DNA from: a virus
Reading direction: 5' to 3' (one strand)
Length of the DNA stretch: 22,873 bases
UHGV virus genome: UHGV-0188094
The stretch's first letter is position 1. Each line of letters starts with the position of its first letter. The notes below the pieces were generated by a model. That model saw nothing but the letters and a program-made list of their open reading frames with translations. It searched no databases and was not told where the DNA came from. The translations under genes were made by a program, and so were the position numbers. This document shows positions 215 through 19,985 of the stretch, piece by piece.

Positions 215-577
215 GGGGCTGATTCTGGATTCGACGGGATTTGCGAAACCCAAGGTGCATGCCGAGGGGCGGTTGGCCTCGTAAAAAGCCGCAAAAAATA
301 GTCGCAAACGACGAAAACTACGCTTTAGCAGCTTAATAACCTGCTTAGAGCCCTCTCTCCCTAGCCTCCGCTCTTAGGACGGGGATCAAGAGAGGTCAAA
401 CCCAAAAGAGATCGCGTGGAAGCCCTGCCTGGGGTTGAAGCGTTAAAACTTAATCAGGCTAGTTTGTTAGTGGCGTGTCCGTCCGCAGCTGGCAAGCGAA
501 TGTAAAGACTGACTAAGCATGTAGTACCGAGGATGTAGGAATTTCGGACGCGGGTTCAACTCCCGCCAGCTCCACCA
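215..577 (+). ncRNA. ssrA: tmRNA (SsrA), full length, 363 nt
   Basis: Starts GGGGCTGATTCTGGATTCGACGGG and ends ...CGCCAGCTCCACCA, the conserved tmRNA ends. The internal tag reading frame gcaaacgacgaaaactacgctttagcagcttaa encodes ANDENYALAA-stop, the enterobacterial SsrA degradation tag. Confidence 0.97.
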
Positions 578-700: not shown

Positions 701-1183
701 ATGGAAGAACTTCACTTTGTTTACATCAATGCAAATGGTCGTATCGGTGTTCACTCAATACAGAGCATCAGTTATAGCGAAAATCATATACAGGGCATTT
801 GTAAGAACACCGATCGAATAAAAACCTTCCGAAAAGACCGCATTCTTAAACAGTACGATTCACCAGAACAAGCCATTCAGGAATGCGCGTCATTCCTCCC
901 CGAAAACTACTCACATCTCACTAAGCAGTCTGGTCCGAAAAAAAATACATTCGATGTGTGTTTCACCGGATTTAAGAAAGCAGATAAAGAAAGATTGGTT
1001 GATAAGGCGAATGAACAAGGATTAACGGTAAGAGCCTCTGTAACCCAAAGCCTTCAGATGCTCTGTTGCGGTTACAATGCAGGCCCATCGAAAGTATCGG
1101 CAGCCAGGATGAAAGGCACAATCATCATAGATGAGCCTGGCTTTATACATTTTCTTGAAACGGGTGAGATCCCAGATGAATAA
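701..1183 (+). CDS. Hypothetical protein (160 aa); C-terminal half reads like a BRCT-type fold (tentative)
   Basis: ORF with RBS AGAGG about 6 nt upstream of the ATG. The C-terminal stretch FDVCFTGF...GLTVRASVTQSLQMLCCGYNAGPSKVSAARMKGTIIIDE resembles BRCT domains by eye only. Lies between attL and ogr. Confidence 0.5.
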   Translation: MEELHFVYINANGRIGVHSIQSISYSENHIQGICKNTDRIKTFRKDRILKQYDSPEQAIQECASFLPENYSHLTKQSGPKKNTFDVCFTGFKKADKERLVDKANEQGLTVRASVTQSLQMLCCGYNAGPSKVSAARMKGTIIIDEPGFIHFLETGEIPDE

Positions 1184-1496: not shown

Positions 1497-2597
1497 TTAT
1501 TCCATTTCAAGATCATCAATCCTCACTTCAAGCTCCAGACTGGTCGTAAAACCGTTATCCGGGCTGACGGTATGCGTCAGAGTCGTAATGGTCCATTCCG
1601 CATCATCTATCGGCTGTTTAAAACCACTGACTTTCACTGGCATTTCCGTGTAGAGATCTGCCCGACCTTCCGCCAGTTGTAGCGAGAATGACGCAACGCC
1701 GCGTTGCAGGCGTTCCCACTGCATTTTCGCTGCCCGTTCAGCGTTACTCCGATTAGCATAGGTGCGATTAAGTACCAGCACGTTTTCATCCGTACCCACC
1801 AGGTAATCGCCCTGCTTCGCTTCCGGCTCTTTCTTCTGCTTCTTAGTCCTGCGCTTACGCTTCACCGTAGTGCTTTCTTTCTTCGCGGGTTCGCGGGTAT
1901 GCAACCAGCTGGCAATTACGCCCGTGTAGGCTCCGCGATCTGCCAGGGTAAAGCGGTGGCTGTCGCCGTCCTTGCGTGTGATAGTGATCACTGGCAGAGG
2001 TTTACCGCTGGCGCTTTTGCCCTGTCCCTGCCGGATGAATAACAGATTGCCATTTTTCACCGACGCAATAGCACCGTACTGGCGCGCCAGCCGCATCAAA
2101 AAACTGCCGTCACTCTCATTGGTCTGGTCTATATGATCCACGGGCTTATCCGACAGATCTTTACCCAATGCCATCTTCAGTTTGTGCCGCGCAGCTATTT
2201 CCTTCACCACTTCCCCAACGGTGGTCTTGTGCCACGACTTTTCACGGCGGGTATTCAGCGTTTCCCGAAAATCAGCACTTCGCGCCCGGATAGTCAGTCG
2301 GTCCGGTGCGCCAGTGTGTTCAATCTCGTCCACCGTGAATGCCCCTTTCGGGAAAAGCGGCTGCCCCTTCCAGCCCAGCGCCAGCGTAATGACCGCACCA
2401 CGGCGCGGCAGCACTATTTTTCCATCGGCGTCGTCCAGCTCCAGATCAAGCTGGTCCGCTTCAAAGCCCCGGTTATCCGTCAGCGTCAGCCTCATCAGGC
2501 GGTTATCCAGCACAGTGGTGATATCCCTGCCCTCAATACTGATGCTGAATGCGGGAGTTTTGTTGCCTTTGTTAAGCAGTTCAGAGCTGAAATTCAC
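1497..2597 (-). CDS. P2 gpD-like tail protein (late gene D), 366 aa
   Basis: Full-length ORF directly upstream of ogr, as in P2 (D-ogr). GTG start overlaps the gpU stop (GTGA). The gpD identification is from recalled family resemblance plus synteny. Confidence 0.8.
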   Translation of the reverse strand: MNFSSELLNKGNKTPAFSISIEGRDITTVLDNRLMRLTLTDNRGFEADQLDLELDDADGKIVLPRRGAVITLALGWKGQPLFPKGAFTVDEIEHTGAPDRLTIRARSADFRETLNTRREKSWHKTTVGEVVKEIAARHKLKMALGKDLSDKPVDHIDQTNESDGSFLMRLARQYGAIASVKNGNLLFIRQGQGKSASGKPLPVITITRKDGDSHRFTLADRGAYTGVIASWLHTREPAKKESTTVKRKRRTKKQKKEPEAKQGDYLVGTDENVLVLNRTYANRSNAERAAKMQWERLQRGVASFSLQLAEGRADLYTEMPVKVSGFKQPIDDAEWTITTLTHTVSPDNGFTTSLELEVRIDDLEME

Positions 2598-3037
2598 GAC
2601 ATCAGCCCTCCCACCGTTTTACTGATATCGCTTAAGGCAGATGTTGCCGTTTCCTGCAGATTATTCAGTTGCGCACTGAGATCACCGAACATATCGGACA
2701 GGGATTCATCCACCCGTTTGAGCGACAGGGTGAACTCAATCCGGCGCGGCATACCGTCGCGGAAAAACTCCGTTTTAGTCTGATTCAGTCCCTCAATCAC
2801 ATACATGCCGTAAATCGTGCCGCTGCCTTCAATCAGAGGCCATGCTTTCCCCTGTTCTGCCATCTGCTCCAGTGCCAGCAACGACAGCCTGCCGCCTGTT
2901 ATCTCCGGCATAAGAACACCGGAAAGCGTCAGCATGTCGTTTTCCGGTCCCAGAAACTGCGTGGACGGACGTCGGTTTACCCGACTGTTTGCCGCATGTC
3001 GCCAGCTGCGTTGATACTGCAGTTGTCTTCCTGCCAG
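2594..3037 (-). pseudogene. P2 gpU-like tail protein, 5'-truncated by a deletion junction
   Basis: The frame reads ...QLQYQRSWRHAANSRVNRRPSTQFLGPENDMLTLSGVLMPEITGG... and continues upstream of the ATG at 2935 to a stop at 3050..3052. gpU-like sequence begins near 3025; upstream of that the sequence belongs to the gpN fragment in another frame. Confidence 0.6.
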
Positions 3038-3639
3038 TAGATGGACAGGTTATCCAGACGGGTGATCAGCAGCGCATTCGGCGGGAAGAACGGCGCACGC
3101 ACGGCCTGCAGGCCACCCATGCGTTTCTGGCTGATGATCATATCGGCAGCCAGTTTTTCACTGTTTTCCTGCTCTTTGTTGACCAGCGGGAAATACTTGT
3201 CAGACAACAGTTCACGACCGCAAATCACCACCAGACCGTCATCGTCCTGGTAAACCACGTCGATAAGCTCATTGACGGCATCCATCACCACAGCGTCCAG
3301 GTTGGCATATTCGCCACCTTTCCCGACTTTCACCGCACCCGGAGTGGTTTCACCGCCCGTGGTGGTGCTGCCCATGACGTGATCCGGTGCATCCTCACGG
3401 ATTTTCTGCAGCCAGCCTTTGTTCACATCCTGCAGCAGCGGGTTTTCGCTACGGTTGGAGGTTTTCGCACGCTTCACGCCGTTAAAGCCGATCATGATGC
3501 GGTCCAGTGCCTGACGTTTCACGATGGCGTCACGGATGCGCACCTGGAAATCCTGAAACTTCGCCCACAGATCCAGCTTCGCGTAGGTCAGCACCGTGTC
3601 AAAGTTGGTCTGCTCGCATTTATATTCCACATCGACCAT
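2977..3639 (-). pseudogene. P2 gpN-like major capsid protein fragment (internal portion only)
   Basis: Translation YKCEQTNFDTVLTYAKLDLWAKFQDFQVRIRDAIVKRQALDRIMIGFNGVKRAKTSNRSENPLLQDV...VGKGGEYANLDAVVMDA...ISQKRMGGLQAVRAPFFP...NLSIY matches the middle of P2 gpN. The N-terminal third or so is absent and the last 19 residues are read from gpU DNA in another frame. Confidence 0.7.
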
Positions 3640-3651
3640 CAGGGTCGGATC

Positions 3652-4320
3652 GGTGAAGTGATCGCCCTTGAGCCTGCGCTGGCAAAATACACCCGACGCG
3701 GATTAGACCTGGATACCTACTGGTTTGTGCAATACGGTATGACAACCCAGCCGTATCAGTTCACGAAAGGCAGCATTTTTCATCTGATGGAACCGGATAT
3801 TAATCAGGAGATCTACGGCCTGCCCGGTTATCTTTCTGCCATTCCGTCAGCCCTGCTCAACGAGTCCGCCACGCTGTTCCGTCGCAAGTATTACATTAAC
3901 GGCAGTCATGCGGGCTTTATCATGTACATGACCGATGCCGCGCAAAACCAGGAGGATGTGAACAACCTCCGCAATGCGATGAAAAGCGCCAAAGGGCCGG
4001 GCAACTTCCGCAACCTGTTTATGTACTCACCTAACGGCAAAAAGGACGGGCTTCAGATTATCCCGTTATCAGAAGTCGCAGCGAAGGATGAGTTTCTGAA
4101 TATCAAAAATGTTAGTCGCGATGACATGATGGCGGCACACCGCGTTCCGCCGCAAATGATGGGGATTATGCCTAATAATGTCGGGGGGTTTGGGGATGTG
4201 GAGAAGGCTAGTAAGGTTTTTGTGATAAATGAATTAATTCCTTTGCAAAAACGATTTAGAGAAATTAATGCATGGCTCGGGGAAAAACTTATAGAATTTT
4301 CTCCATATGAGCTTAACTAA
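3652..4320 (+). pseudogene. P2 gpQ-like portal protein, C-terminal fragment (about 222 aa) fused to the gpN fragment
   Basis: Only the last third of the 443-aa ORF-track entry 2989..4320 is real coding sequence (LEPALAKYTRRGLDLDTYWFVQYGMTTQPYQFTKG...RKYYINGSHAGF...); the rest is antisense to gpN. Opposite-strand placement next to N and next to the cos-like site fits gpQ in a reversed P2 map. Confidence 0.55.
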
Positions 4321-4328
4321 AATATTAG

Positions 4329-4358
4329 TTGCCAGTACCGTATTGTTGCTACTGGCAA
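4329..4358. terminator. Hairpin between the convergent gpQ fragment and the ATPase gene (candidate terminator)
   Basis: Perfect 9-bp arms ttgccagta / tactggcaa with a 12-nt loop, flanked by AT-rich sequence. Confidence 0.35.
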
Positions 4359-4369
4359 TTGTAATAAAA

Positions 4370-6379
4370 TTACAAATATGTGTTGCTATGTAGAGATGTG
4401 TTTATTCCATCTTTTATCTCAATTTTTGACGAAGCATACTCATCATTCGCACTATCATCTATATCAAACTCATCTTGTAGATGAAGTGACTCATTTAACG
4501 GTTTATAAAACTCACCCATCATCATTTTGTAATGGGCAGTATGCTCACTACATTCAAATATCTTCTGAAAAACAATTAAATATTTTTGCACAGACTCCGT
4601 ATCTAAATTCATATAAAGATCATCACCTGCAAAATGGGAACCATCATTAATCCATGATACTAAAGATTTAAATATGATTTTTTCATCACCATAAAAATGA
4701 CACTCAAGCTTCCTAATATCCATCCCACCTAATATCTTAAAGTAATTCTCCAAAATCCTTCGCATTGTATTTTGTATAGTATTATTATTAATGTCTGTTC
4801 TTCTCAATTCGCACCAGAGCAAATCATAAGACGTTTTTATTGGGTTTGATTCGCACTTTTCAAGATATGAAACCTTCCCTTTTTTCCTTACAATCCAAAA
4901 AGTCTCCTCTTTCATTGCTTGATTACCGGATCTTTTGGTATTAAAAGTCAACTCTTTATGAAAATAAATATTATGAGTAAGGAATATAATTTGCTTAATA
5001 TTTCCTTCATCCTTACGAACATCCTCCATTAAATCTTTAATCAACGAACTTACAATAAACAGAATATCACTATCTAAACTTGAAATTGGATCATCAAATA
5101 CTACAACACGATCATCTAAAACACCTGATGCATTATCACTCCCTCTAACAAGGCTATAAAAGTACAAAAAAGTGATAAATGTCTTTTCTCCCTCACTAAG
5201 GGTTGTACGAGCATTATCTCCACTATCTCTCACTATCATATAATGCTTTTTATCTTCGGAGGGTTTTAAGTAAAAATTTTTGAAGCCATAAGAGTCCAGA
5301 ATCTTGTTAATTTTTGTAATAGTTGGAAGAGTACTGGTTTTATTAGACTCAATTGCCTCAATAGCCGAAGTATTTAACATTAACTTCTTTTTGTCTTCTT
5401 CTATCCCAGATTTAAGTCCTTGTAACGTCCTATTAAATTTATCAGATTTGCTACGGTAAGAAGTTATTTCAGACTTTAACTCCACCTTTACGATATATGC
5501 CCATATCTGCTTAGAAAGATTACTAGCCTCTACCTTTCTATTACTATGTATTTTGTTATTATTATCTATCAATAGATTTGAATCATTCAAAAAAGAAATA
5601 AAATCATCAACAACTTCACTTAAGTCACTAAAATGAACTGATTCACTTAAAAAATTGCGTTTATTTTTTGCCAATTCAAAATTCTTGTTTAATTCAGATA
5701 ATACTATCTTAGCCTTATCCTCAAACACTTCATAATTTATGAATGGAGATTTAATCGCCCTTATATCATCTATCGCCTTCAAGATATTATTAAGTTGATA
5801 TTCATATTGTAAAACCAATGCATCGATTTCTCTTTTTTTTAACTCATATGTTTTATCAAAATATGATGAAAGATTATCAAATATATTATCATTTACATCC
5901 TGCTGGCAGAATGGGCACTTGGGATTAGATTTATTGAAATATGTTAAACCCTCCTTAACCCAATCACTGTTATTGAGCATTGTAATTAAGTCTGAAACAC
6001 TAACGTCTTTTTTCCCTAGAATACGCTCACTCCAAATTTCCCTACTCAAAATATCATCTATCCCATTGAAGGATGGAATTGTAATTGATACATGTGATGT
6101 CAATTCAGTAGAAAAAACAATTTTTGCTTTCTCAATTAACTCTGCTATTGAGCAAACTTCTGATGTATTATTTTCATACTCAGCCAACACTCTGGCTTTA
6201 AATTTTTCACTACTATTCCTTAATCCCTCAAAAGCCTTTGAGAACACATTGTCATGTTTTACTTTTTGCTTCCAACATGAATCTTTAAAAGATTTTTCAT
6301 GGTCTTCGATTTTTTTAATAACGCCTAATTCATTATCACCACCATCTATTAACTTTTCCTTTGCTATAATAGATTCCAT
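4370..6379 (-). CDS. ABC-type (PrrC/RloC-like, AAA_13-like) ATPase, C-terminal 669-aa part: CPFC motif, coiled-coil insert, LSEGEK signature, Walker B/D-loop, H-loop, and a C-terminal putative effector domain
   Basis: CPFC at aa 155-158; K/E/N-rich predicted coiled coil at about aa 175-380; TLSEGEK (aa 393-399); VVVFDDPISSLD (aa 425-436); FLTHN (aa 466-470). The C-terminal roughly 200 aa contain R540-x3-E544 followed by His 561 and His 582. Very AT-rich compared with the flanking phage genes. Confidence 0.65.
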   Translation of the reverse strand: MESIIAKEKLIDGGDNELGVIKKIEDHEKSFKDSCWKQKVKHDNVFSKAFEGLRNSSEKFKARVLAEYENNTSEVCSIAELIEKAKIVFSTELTSHVSITIPSFNGIDDILSREIWSERILGKKDVSVSDLITMLNNSDWVKEGLTYFNKSNPKCPFCQQDVNDNIFDNLSSYFDKTYELKKREIDALVLQYEYQLNNILKAIDDIRAIKSPFINYEVFEDKAKIVLSELNKNFELAKNKRNFLSESVHFSDLSEVVDDFISFLNDSNLLIDNNNKIHSNRKVEASNLSKQIWAYIVKVELKSEITSYRSKSDKFNRTLQGLKSGIEEDKKKLMLNTSAIEAIESNKTSTLPTITKINKILDSYGFKNFYLKPSEDKKHYMIVRDSGDNARTTLSEGEKTFITFLYFYSLVRGSDNASGVLDDRVVVFDDPISSLDSDILFIVSSLIKDLMEDVRKDEGNIKQIIFLTHNIYFHKELTFNTKRSGNQAMKEETFWIVRKKGKVSYLEKCESNPIKTSYDLLWCELRRTDINNNTIQNTMRRILENYFKILGGMDIRKLECHFYGDEKIIFKSLVSWINDGSHFAGDDLYMNLDTESVQKYLIVFQKIFECSEHTAHYKMMMGEFYKPLNESLHLQDEFDIDDSANDEYASSKIEIKDGINTSLHSNTYL

Positions 6380-6705
6380 TAGCTTATTTTTTCTTCTTTA
6401 AGAGATATTAGTTTCTCTTCATCCTCCTTAAGATCGCTACCAAGGGTAAATACACCTTTAATTTTATCTTGACTAAAATTTCTTTCAACAAAATCTTTAT
6501 TATATACGTAGCTTATTAAAGATATATTATTTTTCCATTTAATCGGACATGTTGGATATTGTTCAGGGTCATTAATAATTTTACTTATAGTTGTTTTACC
6601 TGCACCATTAGCTCCATATAAATAGTTAAATTTAGAAAGTCCATGTAAAAGCTGCGTAGGGCCATTATATGAGCCTACCTTGTCAATAACTACCTCTTCA
6701 ATCAT
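6379..6705 (-). CDS. N-terminal Walker-A part (108 aa) of the same ABC-type ATPase, separated from the downstream ORF by a frameshift (TAATG overlap)
   Basis: P-loop YLYGANGAGKTT at aa 28-39; RBS GAGGA upstream of the ATG at 6705. The stop TAA shares its last A with the ATG of the 669-aa ORF. One extra A in the A6 run (6387..6392 on the plus strand) would fuse the two into a single ORF of about 778 aa. Confidence 0.6.
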   Translation of the reverse strand: MIEEVVIDKVGSYNGPTQLLHGLSKFNYLYGANGAGKTTISKIINDPEQYPTCPIKWKNNISLISYVYNKDFVERNFSQDKIKGVFTLGSDLKEDEEKLISLKEEKIS

Positions 6706-6840: not shown

Positions 6841-6859
6841 CGTATCCCCGCCACGCCTG
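6841..6859 (-). other. cos-like site (186-type cohesive-end core), inverse orientation
   Basis: The reverse complement of 6846..6857 is GGCGTGGCGGGG, which equals the first 12 nt of the 186 cohesive end as I remember it (GGCGTGGCGGGGAAAGCAT). The downstream bases diverge. Confidence 0.45.
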
Positions 6860-6901
6860 CCCGCTTTATGTAGTGGTTTTCATGCACCTGCATGATCTAC
6901 G

Positions 6902-6926
6902 CAAAAGCCCGCCAGTTCTGGCGGGC
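6902..6926 (-). terminator. Rho-independent terminator for the leftward A / tum-like / DinI-like transcript
   Basis: On the minus strand: stem GCCCGCCAG ... CTGGCGGGC followed by TTTTG (plus-strand aaaagcccgccagttctggcgggc). Confidence 0.65.
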
Positions 6927-7061
6927 CTTAGCAAAAACGATCCTCAAACGATCATGCGATCTCATGCGGCATAGACATGCACTACAGAGCTAACGCCTCG
7001 CAAGGGCTCGTTGTTCAACCTTGCTGACGCCAGAAGCAAGTTCAGACGCCAGCAACGTTTC

Positions 7062-7295
7062 TTAATGCAGCCAGCTGTCGTCTTCCCACACCTTCTGCAT
7101 AATTTTCATCACTTGTTTTCTTTCTTCGTCCAGTTGCAGTCCGGTTAGTTCCACACCGTTAGAGCTACCTTTGCGAATGCGAATTACCGTTTTGGGATAC
7201 AGGGGGCGCAGATTGCGGTAAAGCTCGGATTCAAGGGCGTCCAGGGTAGACTGGCTAATCTTCTGCTCTTTATCGATCATTATTTCAATGCGCAT
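7062..7295 (-). CDS. DinI-family protein (77 aa), as in the SOS-induced Tum/DinI modules of 186-like phages
   Basis: MRIEIMIDKEQKISQSTLDALESELYRNLRPLYPKTVIRIRKGSSNGVELTGLQLDEERKQVMKIMQKVWEDDSWLH follows the DinI pattern (MRIE..., hydrophobic core, C-terminal W and acidic tail). RBS GAGGTG lies upstream of this internal Met. Confidence 0.75.
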   Translation of the reverse strand: MRIEIMIDKEQKISQSTLDALESELYRNLRPLYPKTVIRIRKGSSNGVELTGLQLDEERKQVMKIMQKVWEDDSWLH

Positions 7296-7647: not shown

Positions 7648-10062
7648 TTAATACAGGTTCCGCCACTGATCATCTTCCTGCAAACGCTGGTTCCGATAGA
7701 AGATACGCAGGCCTGCTCCTGACGGAATACTGCCTCCGCGAAGGAGTAAATCGATCTCTTTCTCGCTGCCATCAAATCCTCTGGACTTCAGCTCATACAC
7801 GAGCTGCAGTCGCTGATGGTCTGTAATTCGCTGTTTGTAGTCTTTACGCCGTTTCGGTTTCACCAGGCGTAACCTTGCTGCCAGTTCCCGGCGCTCTTTT
7901 TTGCTCATACTGTGCAGGTAATCGTGCAACTCCTTGTCATCCATGCTGGTAATGTCCGTTCTGGGGTCCCCATCAGCTGATTTATCTTTCTCCTGTTGGT
8001 TCAAATTTTCAGCAAGGGGACAGTTATTGCCACGAGTCCAAGGGGCGCAAGCGCCCTGGTCGGCTGCCGCCTCCTGAACGTCAACGGCCTTACGAACCAT
8101 TTTCCACTTCACTGCATGAGTGCAGATCTTGCCCTCTGCAATGGGTGACCAGATGCCATAAATACGAATGCCGTGATCGCCATAGGCGGTCGGCTCTTCG
8201 TTGATTTCATAAGCGGTTCTGATCAGGTGATATTTGCGGGGAACCAGTACGCCGCCCTGCTTCATGATGTAGGTGGCAAAACAACCAGCATCAGCAGCAG
8301 CCAGGATTGCATCAAGGCGCGGGTTATCCAGTACCGGCGCACCTGCTTTTTTGTCCCCCTGTTGCCTTGCCGCCTGACCAGCCAGCAATCGCAGTTCACG
8401 GTAAGCCTGACGCCCCGGAATGCCAAAGAAGCGGAATTGCTGAACACGATGCAGAGACGCCCAGGCATTAACGTATTCAGCATTATCACGCAGGGATTTC
8501 CCCGTTTCCTTGCTGATCTCGCCAGCCAGACCACGCCCGTCAATGTTCTTACTGATGTATTTCGCGATGTAGCTTGTTGGCGTACCTTTGCGCGGGTTAA
8601 TCAACTCAGACTTAAAGCGCGGCCCAGTGTTATTGCCCAGCTCCTCGCGGTCTTCACGGATGGCAAACTTACGCAGTAATACAGTGATGGCGCGGCGGTC
8701 TTTTTTGCGCATAAAACACAACAGGTGCCAGTGAACTGTACCGTCATGATGCGGCTCAGCCACCCGCACGCCATACCAGCGCAATCCGGCTTTGTGCATC
8801 GCCTTACGAAATGCAGCAAACATGCCGACCAGGTAATCACTACTTTGTCTTACCGTCGCATTTGTCCAGGTTGGGTTGGGCCTGCCGTTATTTAGCGTGG
8901 AATGGAAACGTGACGGACAGGTGATGGTGTAGAAAACGGCACAGTCACTGCGCATTTCAGCGATAAGCTCCAGACCTTTAACACAGGCCATCATCTCATT
9001 GCGGCGATGCGCCGGGTTGCTGCTGCTGGCGTTTACCACATCTTCCATATCCAGCGTGTCACCGTCTTCGTTCACCAGTTCATGAGAACGGAAAAACTCC
9101 AGCGACTTACGGCGCTGCTCACGTTTATGCATCACGGCTTCATAGCTGACATAGGGAGATGCTTTTTTGCTGACCAGACAGACAGCACGCAACTGCTCTT
9201 CCCGCCATTCGCAACGCATCTTCCATAATTTCCTATACCACCAGTCGGCGCACAGCATACGCGCCAGCGAACCCGGAATGAGTTCATAGGGCACGGGTTT
9301 ACGGCGGTTTCTTTTCCGACGGAGTTGCTCAAACGCAGGCGGGATGACATCCAGTCGCAGGGTTTCTGCTGCCACCTTTTCCCATGTCTTGCGGATTTCT
9401 TCTGGCTTAACATCATCGGTGGCGTACAAATCACCACAAGCGGCATCAAGACACATGCTCATATGCGCAGCGACAAGAGTAGACAGGCGTTTCACCTGAT
9501 CCTGACTCATTTCAGGCAGGATCAGCAGGCCGTCCAGCCCTTCATGGCTTGCCATAAAGCGAAAAGAAGTGGATAGCTGACTCTCGCGTACATGCTCCAG
9601 TCGTTCCAGACATGGCTTAATCGTCTCACGCAAATAGCGGGAATAAGCCTTTGGCCTGCCCAGGCTGCTGAAGTATTCGATACGTTGCATCAGCGGCTTG
9701 CTGATGTGGGTGGGCTGGGCGCTGACATCTGCCAGAATGACCATGTCTGGGTTAAAACGCTGCTGCTCATGCGCCAGCTTTGCCCGACTAATGAGCTTAT
9801 CCTGCTCCATTTCGCGCTGGACAGGATCACGGGATTCATTAAAGAAATAACGCTCCCAGACCTGATCACTCAGTGCCTCACGGCGCAGCAGTTCCTGCTC
9901 GTTATCGGCAGCGTACAGAGTGATCAGGTTTGAAAGCGCAGAAACCGGCGCAACTTCCGCCGGGTCCAGATAAGGGTTAATGGCCTTTTTCGGGCTGTTC
10001 CATGAGAACGATGCGGAAGCCTCGTTAAAGCCGCAGCAGTTGTTCATATCGGCATGGTTCAT
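7648..10062 (-). CDS. P2/186 gpA-type replication initiation protein (rolling-circle endonuclease), 804 aa
   Basis: Large ORF in the position of gene A downstream of the lysogeny-switch genes. Identification is from recalled family resemblance and synteny. Its ATG overlaps the stop of the upstream Dam-like gene (ATGA). Confidence 0.8.
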
Positions 10063-11018
10063 GCACGTACTCCGTACACGGCAGAACTATCCACGCCACG
10101 CGAATAATCAAATCCCACCCAGCAGCGCGGCCCGGAAACAGCGATGATTTCTGTTGCAGATTTACTCTCACCAGCTGCTACGCCGATGCTGCGTTTTGCC
10201 TTGATGTAGTGGTGAGTAAAATTGCGATACAGCGAACGGATCAGGGATGTGTCACTGTTAGAAATAATGACCGGATGTCCTTCTGATGACCGATGTTCAA
10301 GAACGGATGCCAGGTGATACTGGTCATCTTCAGTGAAGCCGTCAGTGTGATAACCGGAAAACGTGCCGTCATACGGCGGATCGCAATACACCACATCCCC
10401 CGCCTTCAACATCGCCAGCGTTTCATCAAAGCTGGCGCAGATAAACGTTGCCCGCTGGGCTTTTTCTGCAAATGCGCGAATTTCTTTTTCAGGAAAATAC
10501 GGATTTTTATAATTACCGTAGGGAATGTTGAAATGCCCGCTCTTGTTATAGCGACATAAACCACGGTAACCGTGACGATTGAGATACAGGAAATATACCG
10601 CTTTCATGAAATCAGTAATTTCAGTTGAGTAATTAAACTCCTGCCTTATGTTGTAATAAGCCACCTCCCTGTTTGCTTCCTCAAATAAAGCTCTGGCGCG
10701 AGATATAAACGATTCACAATCAGCAGCAACCTTTTTATAGAGGTTGATTAAATCAGGATTAATATCCGCAACAAGATAGCTGGGGTAGTGGATCTCCTGC
10801 GCTTCGTTCTGGATTGCTTCAGCGGTCACACGCAGCAGTTCTGCCGCTTCGACGTGGTTTAGCTGGCGGGATGTGATATGACACGCAAGACTATCAAGGC
10901 GGGCAGCCATTGCTTCAGCCCTTGCCCGGCGTTCTTCCAGACGAGCCTCTGTCAGTAAAATATTAAGCCCTGCGTCATCCGGTCCGATTTTAGTCGTGAG
11001 GGTTTCAATATTACGCAT
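10059..11018 (-). CDS. Dam-like N6-adenine DNA methyltransferase homolog with a replaced N-terminus that lacks the AdoMet-binding motif I
   Basis: The region [15 protein letters not shown]...[36 protein letters not shown]...[17 protein letters not shown]...PVIISNSD aligns to E. coli Dam from about residue 50 onward, including the DPPY catalytic motif. The first roughly 85 aa are Ala/Glu-rich helical sequence with no FxGxG or W-GGK motif. Start taken at the ATG at 11018 (RBS AGGAGA). Confidence 0.7.
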
Positions 11019-11085
11019 AATCAATTCTCCTGAATTTAGATAAAGGGATGCCCGGCGGGTTTACGCCATTAATTTCATTAGCTGG

Positions 11086-13135: not shown

Positions 13136-14155
13136 ATGACCATCAGAAAACAGCCGAACGGAAAATGGTTGTGTGAGTGCTATCCCAATGGACGCAATGG
13201 TAAGCGCGTGCGTAAGCAATTTGCTACCAAAGGCGAAGCCATTGCGTTTGAAAGCTTCACAATGGAAGAAGTGAACAAAAAACCGTGGTTAGGAGAAAAG
13301 GATGATCGGCGACACCTATCAGAATTAATTGAGCTTTGGTATTCCCTGTATGGTCAGACACTCGCAGACCCCAAGCGCCTCATGGCGAAACTTAGAATTA
13401 TCTGTAATGGTCTAGGCGACCCCATCGCCTCAGAACTGACAGCCGGTGACTTTACGAAATACCGCGAAGCACGGTTAAAAGGTGAAGTACGAAATGAAGA
13501 TGGGACGCTTATGTCGCCCGTTAAGCCCCGCACGGTAAACCTCGAACAGCGCAATCTATCATCGGTGTTCGGTACATTAAAAAAACTAGGACACTGGTCA
13601 GCACCAAACCCGCTGGCAGGACTTCCAACCTTCAAAATTGCCGAAGGTGAGCTGGCTTTTCTTTCCATGGACGAAATCAAGCGCCTGTTGGCTGCATGTG
13701 CTGAATCTCAAAGCCCCAGCTTATTAATGATTGCCAAAATATGTTTGGCTACCGGCGCACGTTGGAGCGAAGCCGAAAACCTGCATGGCCACCAAATATC
13801 GAAATACCGAATTACTTATATAAAGACAAAAGGTAAGAAAAACAGAACAGTACCGATATCACAGGAACTATATGACGAACTCCCCAAGCACAGAGGGAAG
13901 TTATTCACGCCATGCAGAAAAGCCTTTGAGCGTGCAGTAAAGCGGGCCGGTATTGAACTTCCGGAGGGGCAATGCACCCATGTATTACGTCATACATTCG
14001 CCAGCCATTTTATGATGAACGGCGGAAACATACTGGTACTACGCGATATTCTGGGCCATGTGGATATAAAAATGACGATGATTTATGCCCACTTTTCCCC
14101 TGACCACCTAGAAGATGCGGTAACAAAAAACCCACTGTTTAATTTAAAATGGTAA
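13136..14155 (+). CDS. int: P2/186-type tyrosine integrase (339 aa)
   Basis: N-terminus ...GRNGKRVRKQF..KGEA.AFE... and C-terminal motifs ...ATGARWSEA..., ...HVLRHTFASHF..., ...GHVDIKMTMIYAHF parallel P2 Int (R, H-x-x-R, catalytic Y). Confidence 0.85.
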   Translation: MTIRKQPNGKWLCECYPNGRNGKRVRKQFATKGEAIAFESFTMEEVNKKPWLGEKDDRRHLSELIELWYSLYGQTLADPKRLMAKLRIICNGLGDPIASELTAGDFTKYREARLKGEVRNEDGTLMSPVKPRTVNLEQRNLSSVFGTLKKLGHWSAPNPLAGLPTFKIAEGELAFLSMDEIKRLLAACAESQSPSLLMIAKICLATGARWSEAENLHGHQISKYRITYIKTKGKKNRTVPISQELYDELPKHRGKLFTPCRKAFERAVKRAGIELPEGQCTHVLRHTFASHFMMNGGNILVLRDILGHVDIKMTMIYAHFSPDHLEDAVTKNPLFNLKW

Positions 14156-15690
14156 ATTTAACGATGAAAAGATTGAAATCAGTTTCCGATGCAGTTATCC
14201 AACTCAGATTAAATGCGGTAAAAGCAAGTATTCAAAGCGTCAATCCAAACGAGTTTATAACACATTGCCTTGATTATAACCTCCAGAAATTTAACAATCA
14301 GCTTGAAATGTTACAACACCTACCATGGGTTGTGAATTTATGCATTAAATGGTCCGCCAGTGCGCTGGGTAAAAAACGGAAATTTAAACATATTGACAGA
14401 CCTGGTGCTGTCAGGTTGCTACAACGAGCATATGAGGAACTAAGTATAATTCCAACTGGTCTGGAAAATATAGACAAAGGGATTAACTTTTTCCTTAGAA
14501 ATACGTTATATCAACAAGGTATTTATCAAAGATTAGATGCTTTAAATACAATTAGCAGACAAGTTTTCTTGTTTTCTTCCTTAGATGACAACAATAGAAT
14601 CAAGCGTAGATTCAAAGAACTTACTGATGTTGATATAAACGATTTTCTAAAACTATCATTTGTGTTAGTATCACTCGTTACCTTACAAGCACCAGTAAAG
14701 AAAATAACAATAGATTCTTTCGCAGCTCTTTACTCCGTAATACCTAAAGATACAATCGAGAAATTTCTGAATACTATATCTATCCCTTACGAAGAACTAG
14801 CTCGGTTTTGCTGTACAAAAGATAATGAGACACCTTTAGTAGAATATTATGCTCCATCGCCTTTCTTAGAAAAACCTTTCATCAAATTCGAAGGAAATTA
14901 TCACCAAATACATACGCAGCTAACTTCGACCAGTATACAAACCTTTATATATGATTTGCTTCGCAGAGATGATGCAGAATCGTTCATGGACAAATTTGGG
15001 CGAGTTTTCGAAAATGCAGTCAACCAGCTATTAGATGAAAGTGGAATTGCTTATATTGCTGAAGGAAATTTAAAAGAATATCTACCTCAAGAGAATAAAG
15101 TTGTAGATTTTCTACTACCTCATGATGAAGCTAACATTTTCATCGATGCTAAAGGTGTTGAGATAAACCAAAAGGGAATGGTTACACTACGACCAGGGGA
15201 TATTTCTGCCAATATAAAAAGCTCCGTATTAAAAACTATAGAACAAGCACACTCAGTAAATAGAGAGCTAATTAAAAAAGGTAACCAAAATTTTTCTTTT
15301 AAAAAAGAGTCCTACATTTTATGTCTTACTTATAAAAATTTATTCCTTGGAAATGGTACATTTCTAAATAAATCCTATGCTAACATCGAAATGAAAAAAA
15401 TCCGAGATAGGCATTCAGAAGAATATCAAATACCTGATGAGAACATTTTCTGCATATCATTTGAGGAATTCGAGTATCTGCTATCTTCTTGCAAGGAATA
15501 CTCAAAACCTGTACATGAGGTACTGCGAGAAGCTGTAGTTAGAAACCAAACACCATCAAGTGCAGTTTTCCTTTTTGCACATCATATCCGTGACTCATTC
15601 CCCAAAATACGTTCATCTGAGATCGTCAGGCTCGCAGGCTTGAGCGAGATCAACCATATCGTTGAACGATTAGAGCAAGCTGGCTCTTGA
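14149..15690 (+). CDS. Cargo protein (513 aa) with a central PD-(D/E)xK-like nuclease motif; function unknown, candidate defense or abortive-infection factor
   Basis: AT-rich ORF whose ATG overlaps the last codons of int. Candidate motif E305 ... VVD320FLLP ... IFID333AK335 (about 15046..15170). No family recognised by eye. Confidence 0.55.
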   Translation: MVNLTMKRLKSVSDAVIQLRLNAVKASIQSVNPNEFITHCLDYNLQKFNNQLEMLQHLPWVVNLCIKWSASALGKKRKFKHIDRPGAVRLLQRAYEELSIIPTGLENIDKGINFFLRNTLYQQGIYQRLDALNTISRQVFLFSSLDDNNRIKRRFKELTDVDINDFLKLSFVLVSLVTLQAPVKKITIDSFAALYSVIPKDTIEKFLNTISIPYEELARFCCTKDNETPLVEYYAPSPFLEKPFIKFEGNYHQIHTQLTSTSIQTFIYDLLRRDDAESFMDKFGRVFENAVNQLLDESGIAYIAEGNLKEYLPQENKVVDFLLPHDEANIFIDAKGVEINQKGMVTLRPGDISANIKSSVLKTIEQAHSVNRELIKKGNQNFSFKKESYILCLTYKNLFLGNGTFLNKSYANIEMKKIRDRHSEEYQIPDENIFCISFEEFEYLLSSCKEYSKPVHEVLREAVVRNQTPSSAVFLFAHHIRDSFPKIRSSEIVRLAGLSEINHIVERLEQAGS

Positions 15691-15933: not shown

Positions 15934-16030
15934 CGTCTATTGTAGTCTAGTGAGAATTGCTGAGAACTACGAGTTATGGCACCCTGAATGGGACCCACGA
16001 AGATGGGTCCTAAAATCGAGGGTCCCAAAC

Positions 16031-17260
16031 ATGGCCAAAATCGCTAAGAAGCTCACTGACACTGAAATCAAAAGCACCAAACCTGCCGAAAAAGAGGTTA
16101 ACCTTTTTGACGGCGATGGTTTGCTGTTGCGAATCGCTCCCCTGGCGAAGGGAGGGAAGAAAAATTGGTATTTCAGATATGCAGTGCCTGTGACCAAAAA
16201 GCGAACTAAGGTGAGCTTAGGAACCTATCCTCACCTTACACTTGCGAAGGCACGAGCTTTACGTGATGAATACTTGTCGTTGCTTACAAATGGTATAGAC
16301 CCCCAAGTTCATAACAACCAAAAAGCCAATGCACTGAAAGATGCCACGGAACATACATTTCAAGCAGTAGCCAAGAAGTGGCTTGATGAGAAAGTCAAAA
16401 CGTCAGGCATCTCCCAAGATCATGCTAACGACATCTGGCGAAGCCTAGAGAGAAATATCTTTTCCACATTGGGTGATACCCCAATTAAGGAGATTCGCCC
16501 TAAAATGCTTAAACAGCATTTAGAACCCATAGAAAAACGAGGTGTCCTTGAAACACTTCGCCGCATCATATCCCGCCTGAATGAAATTTTCCGCTATGCA
16601 GCAACAGAAGAACTCATAGAATTCAACCCGGCAGACAACCTGGGGCAACGGTTCAGCAAGCCAAAAAAACAGAATATGCCAGCATTACCCCCTTCCGAAC
16701 TCCCTCGCTTCTTGGTTGCTCTAAACAATGCTTCTATCCGTTTGGAAACAAGGCTACTGATTGAGTGGCAACTTCTCACATGGGTTCGCCCAGGTGAAGC
16801 TGTTCGCACAAGATGGTCAGATATTGATATTGAAACTGGCATGTGGAACATCCCGGCGGAGTTTATGAAAATGAAGAAGCCTCACAAAGTTCCACTGAGC
16901 AAAGAAGCTTTGCGAGTTTTGGATTTAATGAAAGTCATCAGCGGGCATAGAGAGTGGGTGTTCCCCAGTATCAAAGCTCCACTCAATCACATGCATGAAC
17001 AAACAGCTAATGCGGCCATAATCCGTATGGGTTTCGGAGGTGAGCTTGTAGCTCACGGTATGCGATCCATTGCTAGAACGGCTGCTGAGGAGTCTGGCAA
17101 GTTTAGGACTGATGTCTTAGAAGCCGCCCTTGCCCACTCGAAGAAAGATGAAATAATTGCAGCCTACAATCGTGCAGAGTATCTCACTGAACGGGTGGTT
17201 CTCATGCAATGGTGGAGTGACTATGTTTCGTCTCAAAAATGCAAAGTTATTGCCGCATAA
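16031..17260 (+). CDS. P4-family tyrosine integrase (IntA/SlpA-like)
   Basis: MAKIAKKLTDTEIKSTKPAEKEVNLFDGDGL..., ...DIWRSLERNIF..., ...VPLSKEALRVLD..., ...HGMRSIARTA..., ...AYNRAEYLTERVVLMQWW are P4-integrase hallmarks. Start taken at the ATG at 16031; the ORF track's upstream GTG at 15950 would run into the terminator. Confidence 0.85.
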   Translation: MAKIAKKLTDTEIKSTKPAEKEVNLFDGDGLLLRIAPLAKGGKKNWYFRYAVPVTKKRTKVSLGTYPHLTLAKARALRDEYLSLLTNGIDPQVHNNQKANALKDATEHTFQAVAKKWLDEKVKTSGISQDHANDIWRSLERNIFSTLGDTPIKEIRPKMLKQHLEPIEKRGVLETLRRIISRLNEIFRYAATEELIEFNPADNLGQRFSKPKKQNMPALPPSELPRFLVALNNASIRLETRLLIEWQLLTWVRPGEAVRTRWSDIDIETGMWNIPAEFMKMKKPHKVPLSKEALRVLDLMKVISGHREWVFPSIKAPLNHMHEQTANAAIIRMGFGGELVAHGMRSIARTAAEESGKFRTDVLEAALAHSKKDEIIAAYNRAEYLTERVVLMQWWSDYVSSQKCKVIAA

Positions 17261-17323
17261 CTCTCCCATGATGGATTAACTATCTTGATTTAGTTAAAGA
17301 ATTAATAATCACACCATTAACCT

Positions 17324-17372
17324 ATGTGGACTAAGCATAGCCATTTACAAATGGGGACATTGAGTCCACATA
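17324..17372. repeat. Composite 49-bp palindrome upstream of the serine recombinase gene (candidate recombination or operator site)
   Basis: Outer arms tatgtggact / agtccacata and inner arms ccattt / aaatgg, placed symmetrically around a central AC dinucleotide (17348..17349). Confidence 0.5.
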
Positions 17373-17542
17373 ACGAAAGCTGTCGGTCATATCAGCTAAA
17401 TAATTCACATCTCTTCTCGATTATCATACACCTCGAAGATCTACCAAATTCGCTCTAATCAATGATAAAACAGTTGAATTCGGTTGAAATTTGATCAATT
17501 TTATCCACTACATTGTATTGAATCATCCATGAGGTTTCGTGC

Positions 17543-19099: not shown

Positions 19100-19985
19100 A
19101 AAAAATGAATTCCCAATAATTCAAATTGAGATTGCAAAAATAAAATTTCTTAACCCACGAACAAGAAATAAGGTAGTGCATGAAGAAATAAAGGAAAGCA
19201 TAAAAAAAAGAGGATTAAGCAAGCCAATAAGCGTAAGAGCTATTGATGAAGGCGATTTCAAATATGCTTTAATTTGTGGTCAAGGGAGAATAGAGGCTCT
19301 CGTTGCATTAGGTGAAACTATTATTCCAGCAATTATAAGAGATGTATCAGAAGAAGATGCTTACGTTATGAGTTTAGTTGAAAACATTGCAAGGAGAAGA
19401 CCACGTTCTAATGAGTTATTACAGGTGATTAAAGACATGAAAATCAGAGGACTTTCAGACTCCGAAATAAGTGAGATTACTGGATATTCATCGAACTGGG
19501 TGAGCAGTATTAATATGCTACTTGATAAGGGAGAGCATAAACTTCTCTCAGCAGTCGAACGGGGTAATTTGCCTCTGTATCTCGCAGTGCAATTTGCAAG
19601 ATGTGAAACTGAGGAAGCACAAGATATTCTTACCGAAGCATATGATAAAAAATTAATAAAAAGTCGGGACATTATAAAGATAAAACACATTCTAAATCAA
19701 AGAACAGTTGGGAATAAAGGTGCAAAAGCAGCCGGATTTTATTATCACAAACCATCAAAAAGGATGACTGCAGAGGAGTTGATTGAGCTTTATGAAAATA
19801 GTATCGCTGAACATAAATCTGTTTATAACAACTCAAAATTCATAAAAACCAACCTACTAATAGTAAATGAGATTTTTAACATCATAATGATGAATAAAAG
19901 CTTTCAACATATACTTGAACAAGAGAATCTTTCAGAACTACCATCTCAGATATTAACCCCAGTAAACAAAGAGGTATTAAAATGA
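19089..19985 (+). CDS. ParB/Srx-domain DNA-binding protein with HTH (298 aa), first of two
   Basis: N-terminal ParB-like motif (...KPISVRAID...LICGQGRIEALVALG...) and an HTH (GLSDSEISEITGYSSNWVSSI). Its ATG lies 8 nt upstream of the recombinase stop, so the reading frames overlap by 11 nt. Confidence 0.65.
   Translation: MLPEKNEFPIIQIEIAKIKFLNPRTRNKVVHEEIKESIKKRGLSKPISVRAIDEGDFKYALICGQGRIEALVALGETIIPAIIRDVSEEDAYVMSLVENIARRRPRSNELLQVIKDMKIRGLSDSEISEITGYSSNWVSSINMLLDKGEHKLLSAVERGNLPLYLAVQFARCETEEAQDILTEAYDKKLIKSRDIIKIKHILNQRTVGNKGAKAAGFYYHKPSKRMTAEELIELYENSIAEHKSVYNNSKFIKTNLLIVNEIFNIIMMNKSFQHILEQENLSELPSQILTPVNKEVLK

What the first reader, a model, noticed from the sequence alone, without database searches (positions are those of the whole stretch)
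4370..6705. AT-rich cargo next to the prophage cos site encodes a PrrC/RloC-like ABC ATPase with a putative C-terminal nuclease
Between the gpQ remnant and the cos-like site lies about 2.3 kb of very AT-rich DNA encoding, across two ORFs, a complete ABC-type ATPase: P-loop YGANGAGKTT, CPFC motif, long predicted coiled coil, LSEGEK signature, VVVFDDPISSLD Walker B/D-loop and LTHN H-loop. It is followed by about 200 aa with an R-x3-E...H pattern that recalls the PrrC anticodon-nuclease triad. The size (about 778 aa if fused) and the CxxC plus coiled-coil insert resemble RloC more than PrrC. The cos-proximal region of P2-like phages (where old and tin sit in P2) is an established hotspot for anti-phage cargo. 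The C-terminal domain could equally be a different effector.
Basis: partly seen in the sequence, partly recalled or inferred. Interest (0 to 1): 0.75.

Follow-up and report, generated by a model that had tools for sequence, protein, structure and literature searches.

The report
Frameshifted RloC-like tRNA nuclease gene
The AT-rich insert next to the packaging site of a decayed P2-type prophage is a copy, broken by one missing base, of an RloC-type anti-phage gene (a Rad50-like ATPase fused to a probable tRNA-cutting domain), a kind already catalogued at this prophage hotspot, so it is real but ordinary.

Summary
Two minus-strand ORFs, 6705..6379 (108 aa) and 6379..4370 (669 aa), are one 778-aa gene. 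It is split by loss of one A from an A7 run (window 6387-6392). Intact copies, 99.7% identical, occupy the same slot between cos and the portal gene in 21 complete E. coli genomes.

The protein matches Pfam AAA_13 and PADLOC candidate PDC-S06 end to end. It carries every ABC motif. It has about 360 aa of predicted long helices with an invariant CPxC, and Rad50 is the best structural match. Its C-terminal helical domain carries an invariant R-x3-E-x37-S-H, which fits the published RloC catalytic motif. The size and the lack of a restriction-modification partner fit RloC, not PrrC.

Nuclease activity is inferred only. The C-domain alone hits neither the PrrC model nor any solved fold convincingly.

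The frameshift allele recurs on at least 10 independent contigs, always in the same degraded prophage at ssrA. It is therefore an inherited inactivating mutation. It separates Walker A from the rest, and in G. kaustophilus RloC a Walker A mutation abolishes nuclease activity.

RloC-like AAA_13 genes are already listed as the fifth most common system in the P2 gpA-gpQ hotspot (Rousset 2022). Interest is low: a broken new member of a known kind.

The parts
4370..6705 (-). Whole disrupted RloC-like gene. It would encode 778 aa if one A were restored.
   Evidence: It is 99.7% identical to the intact 2337-nt genes WP_089614729.1 and WP_069914407.1.
6379..6705 (-). ORF1, 108 aa. N-terminal fragment of the ABC head carrying Walker A; its last two residues and the stop codon are out of frame.
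   Evidence: Pfam AAA_13 profile positions 2-104, E=8e-25. PDC-S06 positions 1-107, E=3e-37.
4370..6379 (-). ORF2, 669 aa. Helical insert, second half of the ABC head and the C-terminal domain. Its ATG overlaps the ORF1 stop codon (TAATG).
   Evidence: Pfam AAA_13 positions 115-713, E=7e-135. PDC-S06 positions 122-726, E=6e-225.
6387..6392 (-). A6 run, the frameshift site. Intact alleles have A7.
   Evidence: Alignment with L001 and L002. A6 is also present in four independent contigs, L015-L018.
6589..6615 (-). Walker A, GANGAGKTT (K37).
   Evidence: Read from the sequence. G31, N33, G34, G36, K37, T38 and T39 are invariant in 30 homologues.
5906..5917 (-). CPFC (C264-C267), candidate zinc hook near the middle of the helical insert.
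   Evidence: C264, P265 and C267 are invariant. It lies in a turn between helical arms spanning residues 93-260 and 275-454 in the AlphaFold model.
5186..5200 (-). ABC signature LSEGE (residues 503-507).
   Evidence: Invariant in the alignment.
5072..5107 (-). Walker B and D-loop, VVVFDDPISSLD (residues 534-545).
   Evidence: D538, D539, P540, S542, S543, L544 and D545 are invariant.
4970..4981 (-). H-loop, LTHN (H578).
   Evidence: L576, T577, H578 and N579 are invariant.
4748..4762 (-). R649-R650-I-L-E653, the Arg and Glu of the putative nuclease triad.
   Evidence: R649, R650 and E653 are invariant. Fits the motif Arg-X3-Glu-X36-52-His of PMC2610378.
4634..4639 (-). S690-H691, the putative catalytic His preceded by Ser.
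   Evidence: Invariant. The spacing from E653 is X37.
4373..4867 (-). C-terminal all-helical domain (putative anticodon nuclease) plus an acidic, disordered tail.
   Evidence: AlphaFold model with pLDDT 75 and six helices. A profile of this domain finds 1150 cluster representatives; in the full-length proteins listed it sits at the C-terminal end, the shorter entries checked being C-terminal fragments.
4330..4357 (-). Hairpin between the convergent RloC-like and portal genes, a likely bidirectional terminator.
   Evidence: The 66-nt stretch 4310-4375 that contains it folds to -19.4 kcal/mol (three hairpins), z = -4.0.
6845..6857 (-). cos core, GGCGTGGCGGGGA.
   Evidence: Identical to nt 1-13 of the phage 186 cohesive end. 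The flank is 100% identical to Fels-2 and other P2-family phages.
6903..6929 (-). GC-rich hairpin followed by UUUU, upstream of cos. It probably ends the gpA-DinI transcript.
   Evidence: The 51-nt stretch 6895-6945 that contains it folds to -24.8 kcal/mol, z = -4.3.
3640..4320 (+). Portal (gpQ) gene remnant, C-terminal 226 codons.
   Evidence: Pfam Phage_portal. Deletion junction at about 3650 relative to L001.
7062..7295 (-). DinI-like gene, the last gene of the early operon before cos.
   Evidence: Pfam DinI, E=1e-22. Called as a 77-aa gene in L015.
7648..10062 (-). gpA replication endonuclease, the other border of the hotspot.
   Evidence: Annotated as replication endonuclease in L001. Pfam Phage_GPA in L015.

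Best explanation
The region is a single-gene anti-phage cargo of the RloC family, carried by a 186/Fels-2-like P2-family prophage in the slot between cos and the portal gene.

The intact 778-aa protein has a Rad50-like ABC ATPase head. The head is split by about 360 aa of predicted long helices whose mid-point carries a CPFC zinc-hook motif. A C-terminal helical domain of about 120 aa follows, with an R-x3-E-x37-S-H triad.

The mechanism is inferred by analogy with the G. kaustophilus and A. baylyi RloC proteins that have been studied experimentally. The head and hook keep the nuclease silent. Binding of DNA ends turns on ATP hydrolysis. That releases the C-terminal anticodon nuclease, which cuts tRNA at the wobble position, stops translation and aborts the infection.

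In this window the gene is dead or nearly so. Loss of one A from an A7 run puts Walker A on a 108-aa peptide and everything else on a 669-aa ORF, inside a prophage that has also lost most of its morphogenesis genes.

Shown here: the gene structure, the frameshift and its inheritance, family membership by profile, motif conservation, and genomic position. Inferred: zinc binding, sensing of DNA ends, tRNA cleavage, anti-phage effect, and loss of function.
For: Family membership:
- Full-length collinear matches to Pfam AAA_13 and to PADLOC PDC-S06 model PDLC04890.
- Homologues 42-45% identical over 94% of the length are named 'wobble nucleotide-excising tRNase' by JGI.
- Full-length homologues in Streptococcus prophages (26% identity) are annotated 'translation-disabling ACNase RloC'.

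Motifs and fold:
- Walker A, signature, Walker B/D-loop, H-loop, CPxC, and R649/E653/S690/H691 are invariant in 30 homologues down to 41% identity.
- The triad fits the published RloC motif Arg-X3-Glu-X36-52-His, 'Ser often precedes His'. The size fits the published 658-897 aa range.
- The feature order K37-C267-D539-R649-E653-H691 is collinear with GkaRloC K44-C291-D572-R692-E696-H737.
- AlphaFold model, pLDDT 81. The best PDB matches are Rad50 (E=1e-7), then SMC, LmuB and AriA.

Genomic position:
- No partner gene is conserved. Relatives sit in the same cos-portal slot in Enterobacter, in the psu-int hotspot of P4-like satellites, next to CBASS genes, or alone.
- The gpA-gpQ interval is a published defence hotspot, and 'AAA_13, RloC-like' is its system #5 with 420 occurrences.

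Pseudogene status:
- A7 to A6.
- The same allele is on at least 10 contigs from different samples, including one with a different deletion pattern.
- Walker A K44 and Walker B D572 mutants of GkaRloC are nuclease-null in vivo.
Against: - No activity was or could be tested here.
- The C-terminal domain alone gives no hit to the PADLOC PrrC model for any of 19 family members, nor to any Pfam HEPN family.
- No Arg lies 4-6 residues before H691; an invariant Trp is there instead. The canonical HEPN Rx4-6H motif is therefore absent.
- I could not obtain the sequence of a biochemically characterised RloC or PrrC for direct comparison.
- The papers I read contained no phage-plaquing test of any RloC.
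Confidence: 0.78

Rival explanations
1. The split gene still works. Either ribosomal -1 slippage or transcriptional slippage on the A6 run restores some full-length protein, giving a contingency (phase-variable) switch for a toxic gene. Or the 108-aa and 669-aa products reassemble, helped by the TAATG stop-start overlap.
For: The break lies in a homopolymer, and ORF2 is in the -1 frame relative to ORF1. The ORF2 ATG overlaps the ORF1 stop codon. ORF2 carries no further disruptions.
Against: Six A residues are few for efficient slippage. No Shine-Dalgarno sequence precedes the ORF2 ATG. The A6 allele was seen only in one lineage of degraded prophage, against more than 700 contigs with intact 778-aa alleles. 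That pattern is decay, not frequent switching. The few changes since the split (2 substitutions) carry no information about selection.
Confidence: 0.07
2. The intact protein is an AAA_13 defence ATPase, but its C-terminal domain is not an anticodon nuclease. It cuts another RNA or DNA target, or it is a regulatory or sensor domain.
For: The C-domain alone is not recognised by the PrrC model or by HEPN models, and fold searches are non-specific. The Rx4-6H motif is absent. PADLOC lists the family only as a candidate, PDC-S06.
Against: R-x3-E-x37-S-H matches the motif whose three residues were each shown to be essential for nuclease activity in GkaRloC. These residues are invariant across the family. 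PrrC-model alignments of family members run on through the C-domain to model positions 338-349 of 372.
Confidence: 0.12
3. It is a Rad50/SMC/RecN-type DNA repair or maintenance protein of the prophage, not a defence toxin.
For: The best structural matches are Rad50 and SMC heads with coiled coils. There are weak Pfam SMC_N and AAA_23 hits at the P-loop.
Against: No Mre11/SbcD-like partner is present. An extra conserved C-terminal domain is present that Rad50, SbcC and gp46 lack. The DNA is AT-rich cargo in defence hotspots of P2 phages and P4 satellites and next to CBASS. Profile searches favour AAA_13 and PDC-S06 by more than 100 orders of magnitude.
Confidence: 0.02
4. The frameshift is a homopolymer sequencing error and the gene in this genome is really intact.
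For: Single-base errors in A runs are a common sequencing artefact.
Against: The exact 108-aa and 669-aa products are on record from NCBI, JGI, ENA and Logan assemblies. At least 10 contigs from different runs carry them, and all four contigs that I read carry A6. One of these has a different set of prophage deletions.
Confidence: 0.03

Closest known systems
RloC (wobble nucleotide-excising anticodon nuclease; Geobacillus kaustophilus and Acinetobacter baylyi; COG4694; Pfam AAA_13)
   Same: - Size: 778 aa, within the published 658-897 aa range.
- ABC motifs are all present.
- A helical insert carries a central CxxC.
- The C-terminal motif is Arg-X3-Glu-X37-Ser-His.
- It is a stand-alone gene with no restriction-modification partner.
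- The order and spacing of K/C/D/R/E/H are collinear with the GkaRloC residue numbers.
   Different: No direct sequence comparison with a characterised RloC was possible here. The window copy is frameshifted. It is carried by a P2-family prophage in the cos-portal slot. Activity is untested.
'AAA_13, RloC-like', system #5 of the P2 gpA-gpQ hotspot (Rousset et al. 2022, Table S5B)
   Same: Same Pfam family, same hotspot and same single-gene layout. The alignment is collinear, including the DWVK.G....CPFCQ hook region (E=7e-17 over the 399 residues available).
   Different: Only 25% identical, so it is a different subfamily. Neither was among the systems cloned and tested in that paper.
PADLOC candidate PDC-S06
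   Same: Full-length match to model PDLC04890 (E=6e-225 for ORF2).
   Different: PDC-S06 is a bioinformatic candidate without experimental support in the papers found.
PrrC (E. coli anticodon nuclease)
   Same: It is an ABC ATPase with a C-terminal R-x3-E...H triad. The PADLOC PrrC model matches at E=3.9e-11 over ORF2 residues 351-595.
   Different: PrrC is about 400 aa, has no coiled-coil or zinc hook, and is always embedded in a type Ic restriction-modification locus. None of that applies here. The C-domain alone does not hit the PrrC model.
Prophage-borne ABC-HEPN proteins such as APECO1_4465 (Anantharaman et al. 2013)
   Same: An ABC ATPase with a C-terminal putative RNase domain, encoded in integrated prophages and proposed to exclude other phages independently of restriction-modification systems.
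   Different: I could not retrieve APECO1_4465 to test whether it belongs to the same subfamily.
Rad50/SbcC
   Same: Closest solved fold for the head and coiled coil. Both carry a CxxC hook.
   Different: Rad50 and SbcC have no C-terminal nuclease-like domain, and here there is no Mre11/SbcD partner. There is no significant sequence match to any PDB chain.

Membership tests
RloC | ABC ATPase motifs: Walker A, signature, Walker B/D-loop and switch His | tested here: met
   All are present and invariant in 30 homologues.
RloC | Coiled-coil insert splitting the ATPase head, with a central CxxC zinc hook | tested here: met
   Helical arms span about residues 93-260 and 275-454 in the AlphaFold model, and CPFC at 264-267 is invariant. 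Rad50 is the best fold match. Zinc binding itself was not tested.
RloC | C-proximal Arg-X3-Glu-X36-52-His, often Ser-His | tested here: met
   R649-X3-E653-X37-S690-H691, invariant.
RloC | Size 658-897 aa, usually not linked to a restriction-modification locus | tested here: met
   778 aa when restored. No hsd, mod or res genes in the window or around five homologues.
RloC | Sequence homology to a biochemically characterised RloC (Gka or Aba) | not tested
   Those sequences were not obtainable with these tools. Proxies only: JGI and RAST names of homologues, and neither organism was among the best 80 loci kept from the genome scan.
RloC | Excision of the tRNA wobble nucleotide, activated by ATP hydrolysis and DNA | not testable with these tools
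   Needs biochemistry.
RloC | Intact reading frame in this window | tested here: not met
   A7 to A6 frameshift. The window holds a disrupted copy.
PrrC | About 400-aa ABC ATPase without a coiled-coil insert | tested here: not met
   778 aa with a helical insert of about 360 aa.
PrrC | Embedded in a type Ic hsd restriction-modification locus that silences it | tested here: not met
   The neighbours are cos, DinI, gpA and the portal gene.
PrrC | Match to a PrrC profile across the nuclease domain | tested here: inconclusive
   PADLOC PrrC scores E=3.9e-11 when the ABC half is included. The C-domain alone gives no hit in 19 members.
HEPN superfamily | Rx4-6H motif in an all-helical domain | tested here: inconclusive
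P2-family gpA-gpQ defence hotspot cargo | Variable gene(s) between the replication gene A and the portal gene Q, next to cos | tested here: met
   gpA is at 7648-10062, cos at 6845-6857 and the portal remnant at 3640-4320. The same slot is filled in intact prophages and fits the definition.
OLD / AAA_15-AAA_21 ATPases (OLD, PARIS AriA, Gabija GajA) | Full-length match to AAA_15/AAA_21 with a Toprim or DUF4435 partner or domain | tested here: not met
   Only P-loop-level hits (AAA_21 E=0.0015, AriA E=8e-5 on ORF1). No Toprim domain.

The most novel reading that the evidence does not exclude
The cos-to-portal interval is a second, separate cargo slot of the P2-family hotspot. An RloC placed there would act as a prophage-borne sensor of free DNA ends from superinfecting or packaging phages, and its A7 tract would offer a one-step off switch when the toxin becomes costly. 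If so, intact alleles such as the one in E. coli ECamp52 would give a natural host system for obtaining plaque-assay evidence that RloC excludes phages. The papers I read contained no such test.
Probability: 0.12. Interest if true: 0.5.

Novelty: new member of a known kind. Interest (0 to 1): 0.25.

Why it matters
It adds little that is new. It confirms that RloC-type ATPase-nuclease fusions are routine cargo of P2-family prophages and P4-like satellites. It also shows one of them decaying together with its prophage.

Two points are modestly useful:
- This subfamily occupies the portal side of cos. In P2 and 186 that interval is a non-coding stretch of about 170 nt. In strain ECamp52, cargo sits on both sides of cos.
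- Intact, near-identical alleles exist in complete E. coli genomes. The frame-restored gene is therefore an easy candidate for a phage-exclusion and tRNA-cleavage test of an enterobacterial RloC. No structure of the family has been solved.

Tried and rejected
- Sequence searches of the PDB found nothing, whether with the single protein, the full-length profile or the C-domain profile.
- The C-domain was scanned alone against PADLOC (19 family members) and Pfam, to link it independently to PrrC or HEPN. No hit beyond its own family.
- An HMM search of 1.84 billion representatives with the C-domain profile found 1150 relatives. The listed top 150 are all the same RloC-like architecture or fragments of it, so it gave no bridge to PrrC-sized proteins.
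- The genome-collection scan returned 80 loci from very diverse bacteria, but not Geobacillus kaustophilus or Acinetobacter baylyi. No direct comparison with a characterised RloC followed.
- NCBIfam has no specific model for the family.
- The supplement of the HEPN paper held no alignments.
- No record in the phage collection carries this gene at the nucleotide level. Only nine phage records carry 26-30% identical homologues.
- The promoter scan found nothing convincing upstream of the gene.
- I considered and rejected a sequencing artefact, an SMC/Rad50 repair protein, and OLD/PARIS-type ATPases (see rival explanations and membership test).
Full report
**1. What is in the sequence**

On the minus strand, an ORF of 108 aa (6705..6379) ends in TAA. 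That stop codon overlaps the ATG of a 669-aa ORF (6379..4370).
- YGANGAGKTT (6589-6615)
- CPFC (5906-5917)
- LSEGEK (5186-5200)
- VVVFDDPISSLD (5072-5107)
- LTHN (4970-4981)
- RRILE...GSH near the C-terminus (4748-4762 and 4634-4639)

Pfam AAA_13 (PF13166) covers ORF1 with profile positions 2-104 (E=8e-25) and ORF2 with positions 115-713 of 713 (E=7e-135). The two ORFs are therefore consecutive pieces of one family member.

**2. The split is a one-base deletion**

A nucleotide search of 5,426 complete E. coli genomes found 21 with the whole region at 98-99.8% identity. Each was annotated as a single 'AAA family ATPase' next to 'phage portal protein'. In two of them, ECamp52 and UTME-13, the gene is an intact 2337-nt ORF (778 aa; WP_089614729.1 and WP_069914407.1). 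It lies between the DinI-like gene and the portal gene of a complete 186/Fels-2-like P2-family prophage.

Alignment shows that the window differs from ECamp52 inside the gene by one missing A in an A7 run (now A6, window 6387-6392) and by two amino-acid substitutions.

The exact 108-aa and 669-aa products are on record from NCBI, JGI, ENA and Logan assemblies. Ten contigs carrying them were read, from different samples. In the places shown they sit in the same degraded prophage. The four I read all have A6. One of them (L016) has a different set of prophage deletions. The frameshift is therefore inherited and older than some of the deletions, and it is not a sequencing artefact. Intact 778-aa alleles are far more common: 154 + 549 + further contigs.

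**3. Surroundings**

Window 6857..6845(-), GGCGTGGCGGGGA, equals the first 13 nt of the annotated cohesive end of phage 186. The adjoining 70 nt are 100% identical to Fels-2 and other P2-family phages.

In P2 and 186 the portal gene ends 170-180 nt after cos, with only a terminator in between. Here that interval holds the 2.3-kb gene. So the cargo is on the portal side of cos. It is not on the gpA side, where old and tin must lie in P2. In ECamp52, two further hypothetical genes sit on the gpA side, so both sides of cos can carry cargo.

A strong hairpin followed by UUUU lies just upstream of cos (z = -4.3). Another hairpin lies between the convergent RloC-like and portal genes (z = -4.0). The gene therefore probably has its own promoter, but the consensus scan did not find a convincing one.

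The prophage itself is a wreck:
- The last 226 codons of the portal gene abut an internal capsid-gene fragment.
- These are followed by the gpU C-terminus and gpD.
- A deletion has removed TraR, fusing DUF2732 in frame to the Dam methylase.

The prophage sits at ssrA (tmRNA gene at 215-577).

**4. What the protein is**

*Profile and naming evidence.* PADLOC's candidate family PDC-S06 (model PDLC04890) matches end to end (ORF1 to positions 1-107, ORF2 to 122-726 of 732, E=6e-225). The PADLOC PrrC model matches ORF2 residues 351-595 at E=3.9e-11. Homologues 42-45% identical over 94% of the length are widespread, and several are named 'wobble nucleotide-excising tRNase' by JGI, which is the RloC name. 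A genome scan confirmed 589 relatives among the first 600 pattern matches in the species-representative genomes, from many phyla. Streptococcus prophages carry 26%-identical full-length homologues annotated 'translation-disabling ACNase RloC'.

*Conservation.* In an alignment of 30 homologues the following are invariant: Walker A, LSEGE, Walker B/D-loop, LTHN, C264-P265-x-C267, R649/R650, E653 and S690-H691.

*Fit to the published definition.* Davidov and Kaufmann defined RloC by four features (PMC2610378):
- ABC motifs
- a coiled-coil/CX2C zinc-hook insert
- a C-proximal Arg-X3-Glu-X36-52-His, 'where Ser often precedes His'
- a size of 658-897 aa

Here the motif is R-X3-E-X37-S-H in a 778-aa protein. 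The order K37 / C267 / D539 / R649 / E653 / H691 parallels GkaRloC K44 / C291 / D572 / R692 / E696 / H737.

*Predicted structure.* An AlphaFold model (pLDDT 81) shows the two ABC half-domains, about 360 residues of long helices with CPFC in a turn near their mid-point, and a helical C-terminal domain. Its best PDB matches are Rad50 (E=1e-7), then SMC heads, Lamassu LmuB, PARIS AriA and retron PtuA.

**5. Limits of the nuclease assignment**

- The C-terminal domain on its own is recognised only by its own family models. The PrrC model does not recognise it in any of 19 members, and no Pfam HEPN family does.
- No solved structure shares detectable sequence similarity with the family.
- The canonical HEPN Rx4-6H motif is not present. 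An invariant Trp sits six residues before H691.
- On the other side, PrrC-model alignments of family members do run through the C-domain, to model positions 338-349 of 372.

This agrees with the literature, where the RloC-PrrC link in the C-domain needed 'manual adjustment'. The nuclease function is therefore a well-founded inference from family membership and an experimentally validated motif. It is not something shown here.

**6. How it most likely works**

For GkaRloC, published work shows the following (PMC3458546 and PMC2610378):
- The nuclease is silent without ATP hydrolysis.
- It is activated by DNA.
- Walker A and Walker B mutants are nuclease-null in vivo.
- Zinc-hook mutations bypass the switch.
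- Each triad residue is essential.

In A. baylyi, agents that induce double-strand breaks activate the native RloC against tRNA-Glu and tRNA-Gln (PMC3874168).

By analogy, the intact E. coli protein would sense DNA ends through its Rad50-like part and then excise the wobble nucleotide of target tRNAs, aborting infection.

Genomic context supports a stand-alone defence role:
- A 63%-identical homologue sits in the same slot in an Enterobacter prophage.
- 52%-identical homologues sit in the psu-int hotspot of P4-like satellites in E. coli and Serratia.
- One homologue lies near CBASS genes in Pseudomonas.
- One is solitary in Burkholderia.

No partner gene is conserved.

In the window, Walker A is separated from the rest of the protein. 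Given the GkaRloC K44 result, the copy is most likely inactive. Residual function through slippage on A6, or through fragment reassembly, cannot be excluded but has no support.

**7. Comparison with what is known, and novelty**

The gpA-gpQ interval is the published P2 defence hotspot (PMC9122126). Table S5B of that paper lists 'AAA_13', noted as 'RloC-like', as system #5 with 420 occurrences. Its representative is a different subfamily: 25% identity, E=7e-17, with the hook region collinear. It was not among the systems cloned and tested.

Prophage-borne ABC-HEPN proteins were pointed out in 2013 (PMC3710099). PADLOC flags the family as PDC-S06, and a 2025 preprint mentions an E. coli PDC-S06 ATPase as a probable true defence protein.

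The finding is therefore a new, and here broken, member of a known kind. It is not PrrC: the size is wrong, there is an insert, and there is no restriction-modification locus. It is not an OLD/PARIS-type ATPase either.

**8. Verdict**

Novelty and interest are low. The most useful follow-up is a direct phage-exclusion and tRNA-cleavage test of the frame-restored gene.

Noticed in passing
window 215-577 (+): The tmRNA gene ssrA (tag peptide ANDENYALAA) lies at the left end. The P2-family remnant and a second island are integrated in tandem downstream of it.
   Followed up: partly
window 14149-15690 (+): A 513-aa ORF in 32-38% G+C DNA overlaps the end of the prophage integrase gene. It has no Pfam or PADLOC hit. 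It is kept together with the remnant in independent contigs, where it is called as 508 aa (L015-L017). It may be another cargo gene at the int end of the prophage; ECamp52 has a DUF4041 gene in that area.
   Followed up: partly
window 10059-11024 (-): An in-frame fusion of DUF2732 to the D12-class Dam methylase, created by a deletion that removed the TraR/DksA-like gene. A sister contig (L016) still has the three genes separate.
   Followed up: partly
window 2594-4320: Deletion junctions of the decaying prophage. The portal C-terminus (3640-4320, +) abuts an internal capsid fragment (2977-3639, -), followed by the gpU C-terminal fragment (2594-2935, -) and gpD (1497-2597, -). The terminase, the scaffold and most tail genes are gone.
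   Followed up: yes
window 15950-20878 (+): A second island: a P4-type tyrosine integrase (15950-17260), a large serine recombinase (17543-19099), and two adjacent ParB_N/RepB-like ORFs (19089-19985 and 19982-20878). It is AT-rich (31-34% G+C).
   Followed up: no
window 701-1183 (+): A 160-aa ORF between ssrA and gpD has a weak PADLOC hit to the C-terminal end of PDC-S48 (E=2e-7) and of SspE (E=0.0015). It may be a fragment of another defence gene.
   Followed up: no
L001 10869-11926 (E. coli ECamp52): In an intact relative, two hypothetical genes sit between the DinI-like gene and cos, while the RloC-like gene sits between cos and the portal gene. The hotspot therefore has two separate slots, one on each side of cos.
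   Followed up: partly
L008, L013 and L014 (E. coli, Serratia aquatilis): 52%-identical relatives of the same protein occupy the psu-integrase hotspot of P4-like satellites. The subfamily is therefore shared between helper phages and their satellites.
   Followed up: partly
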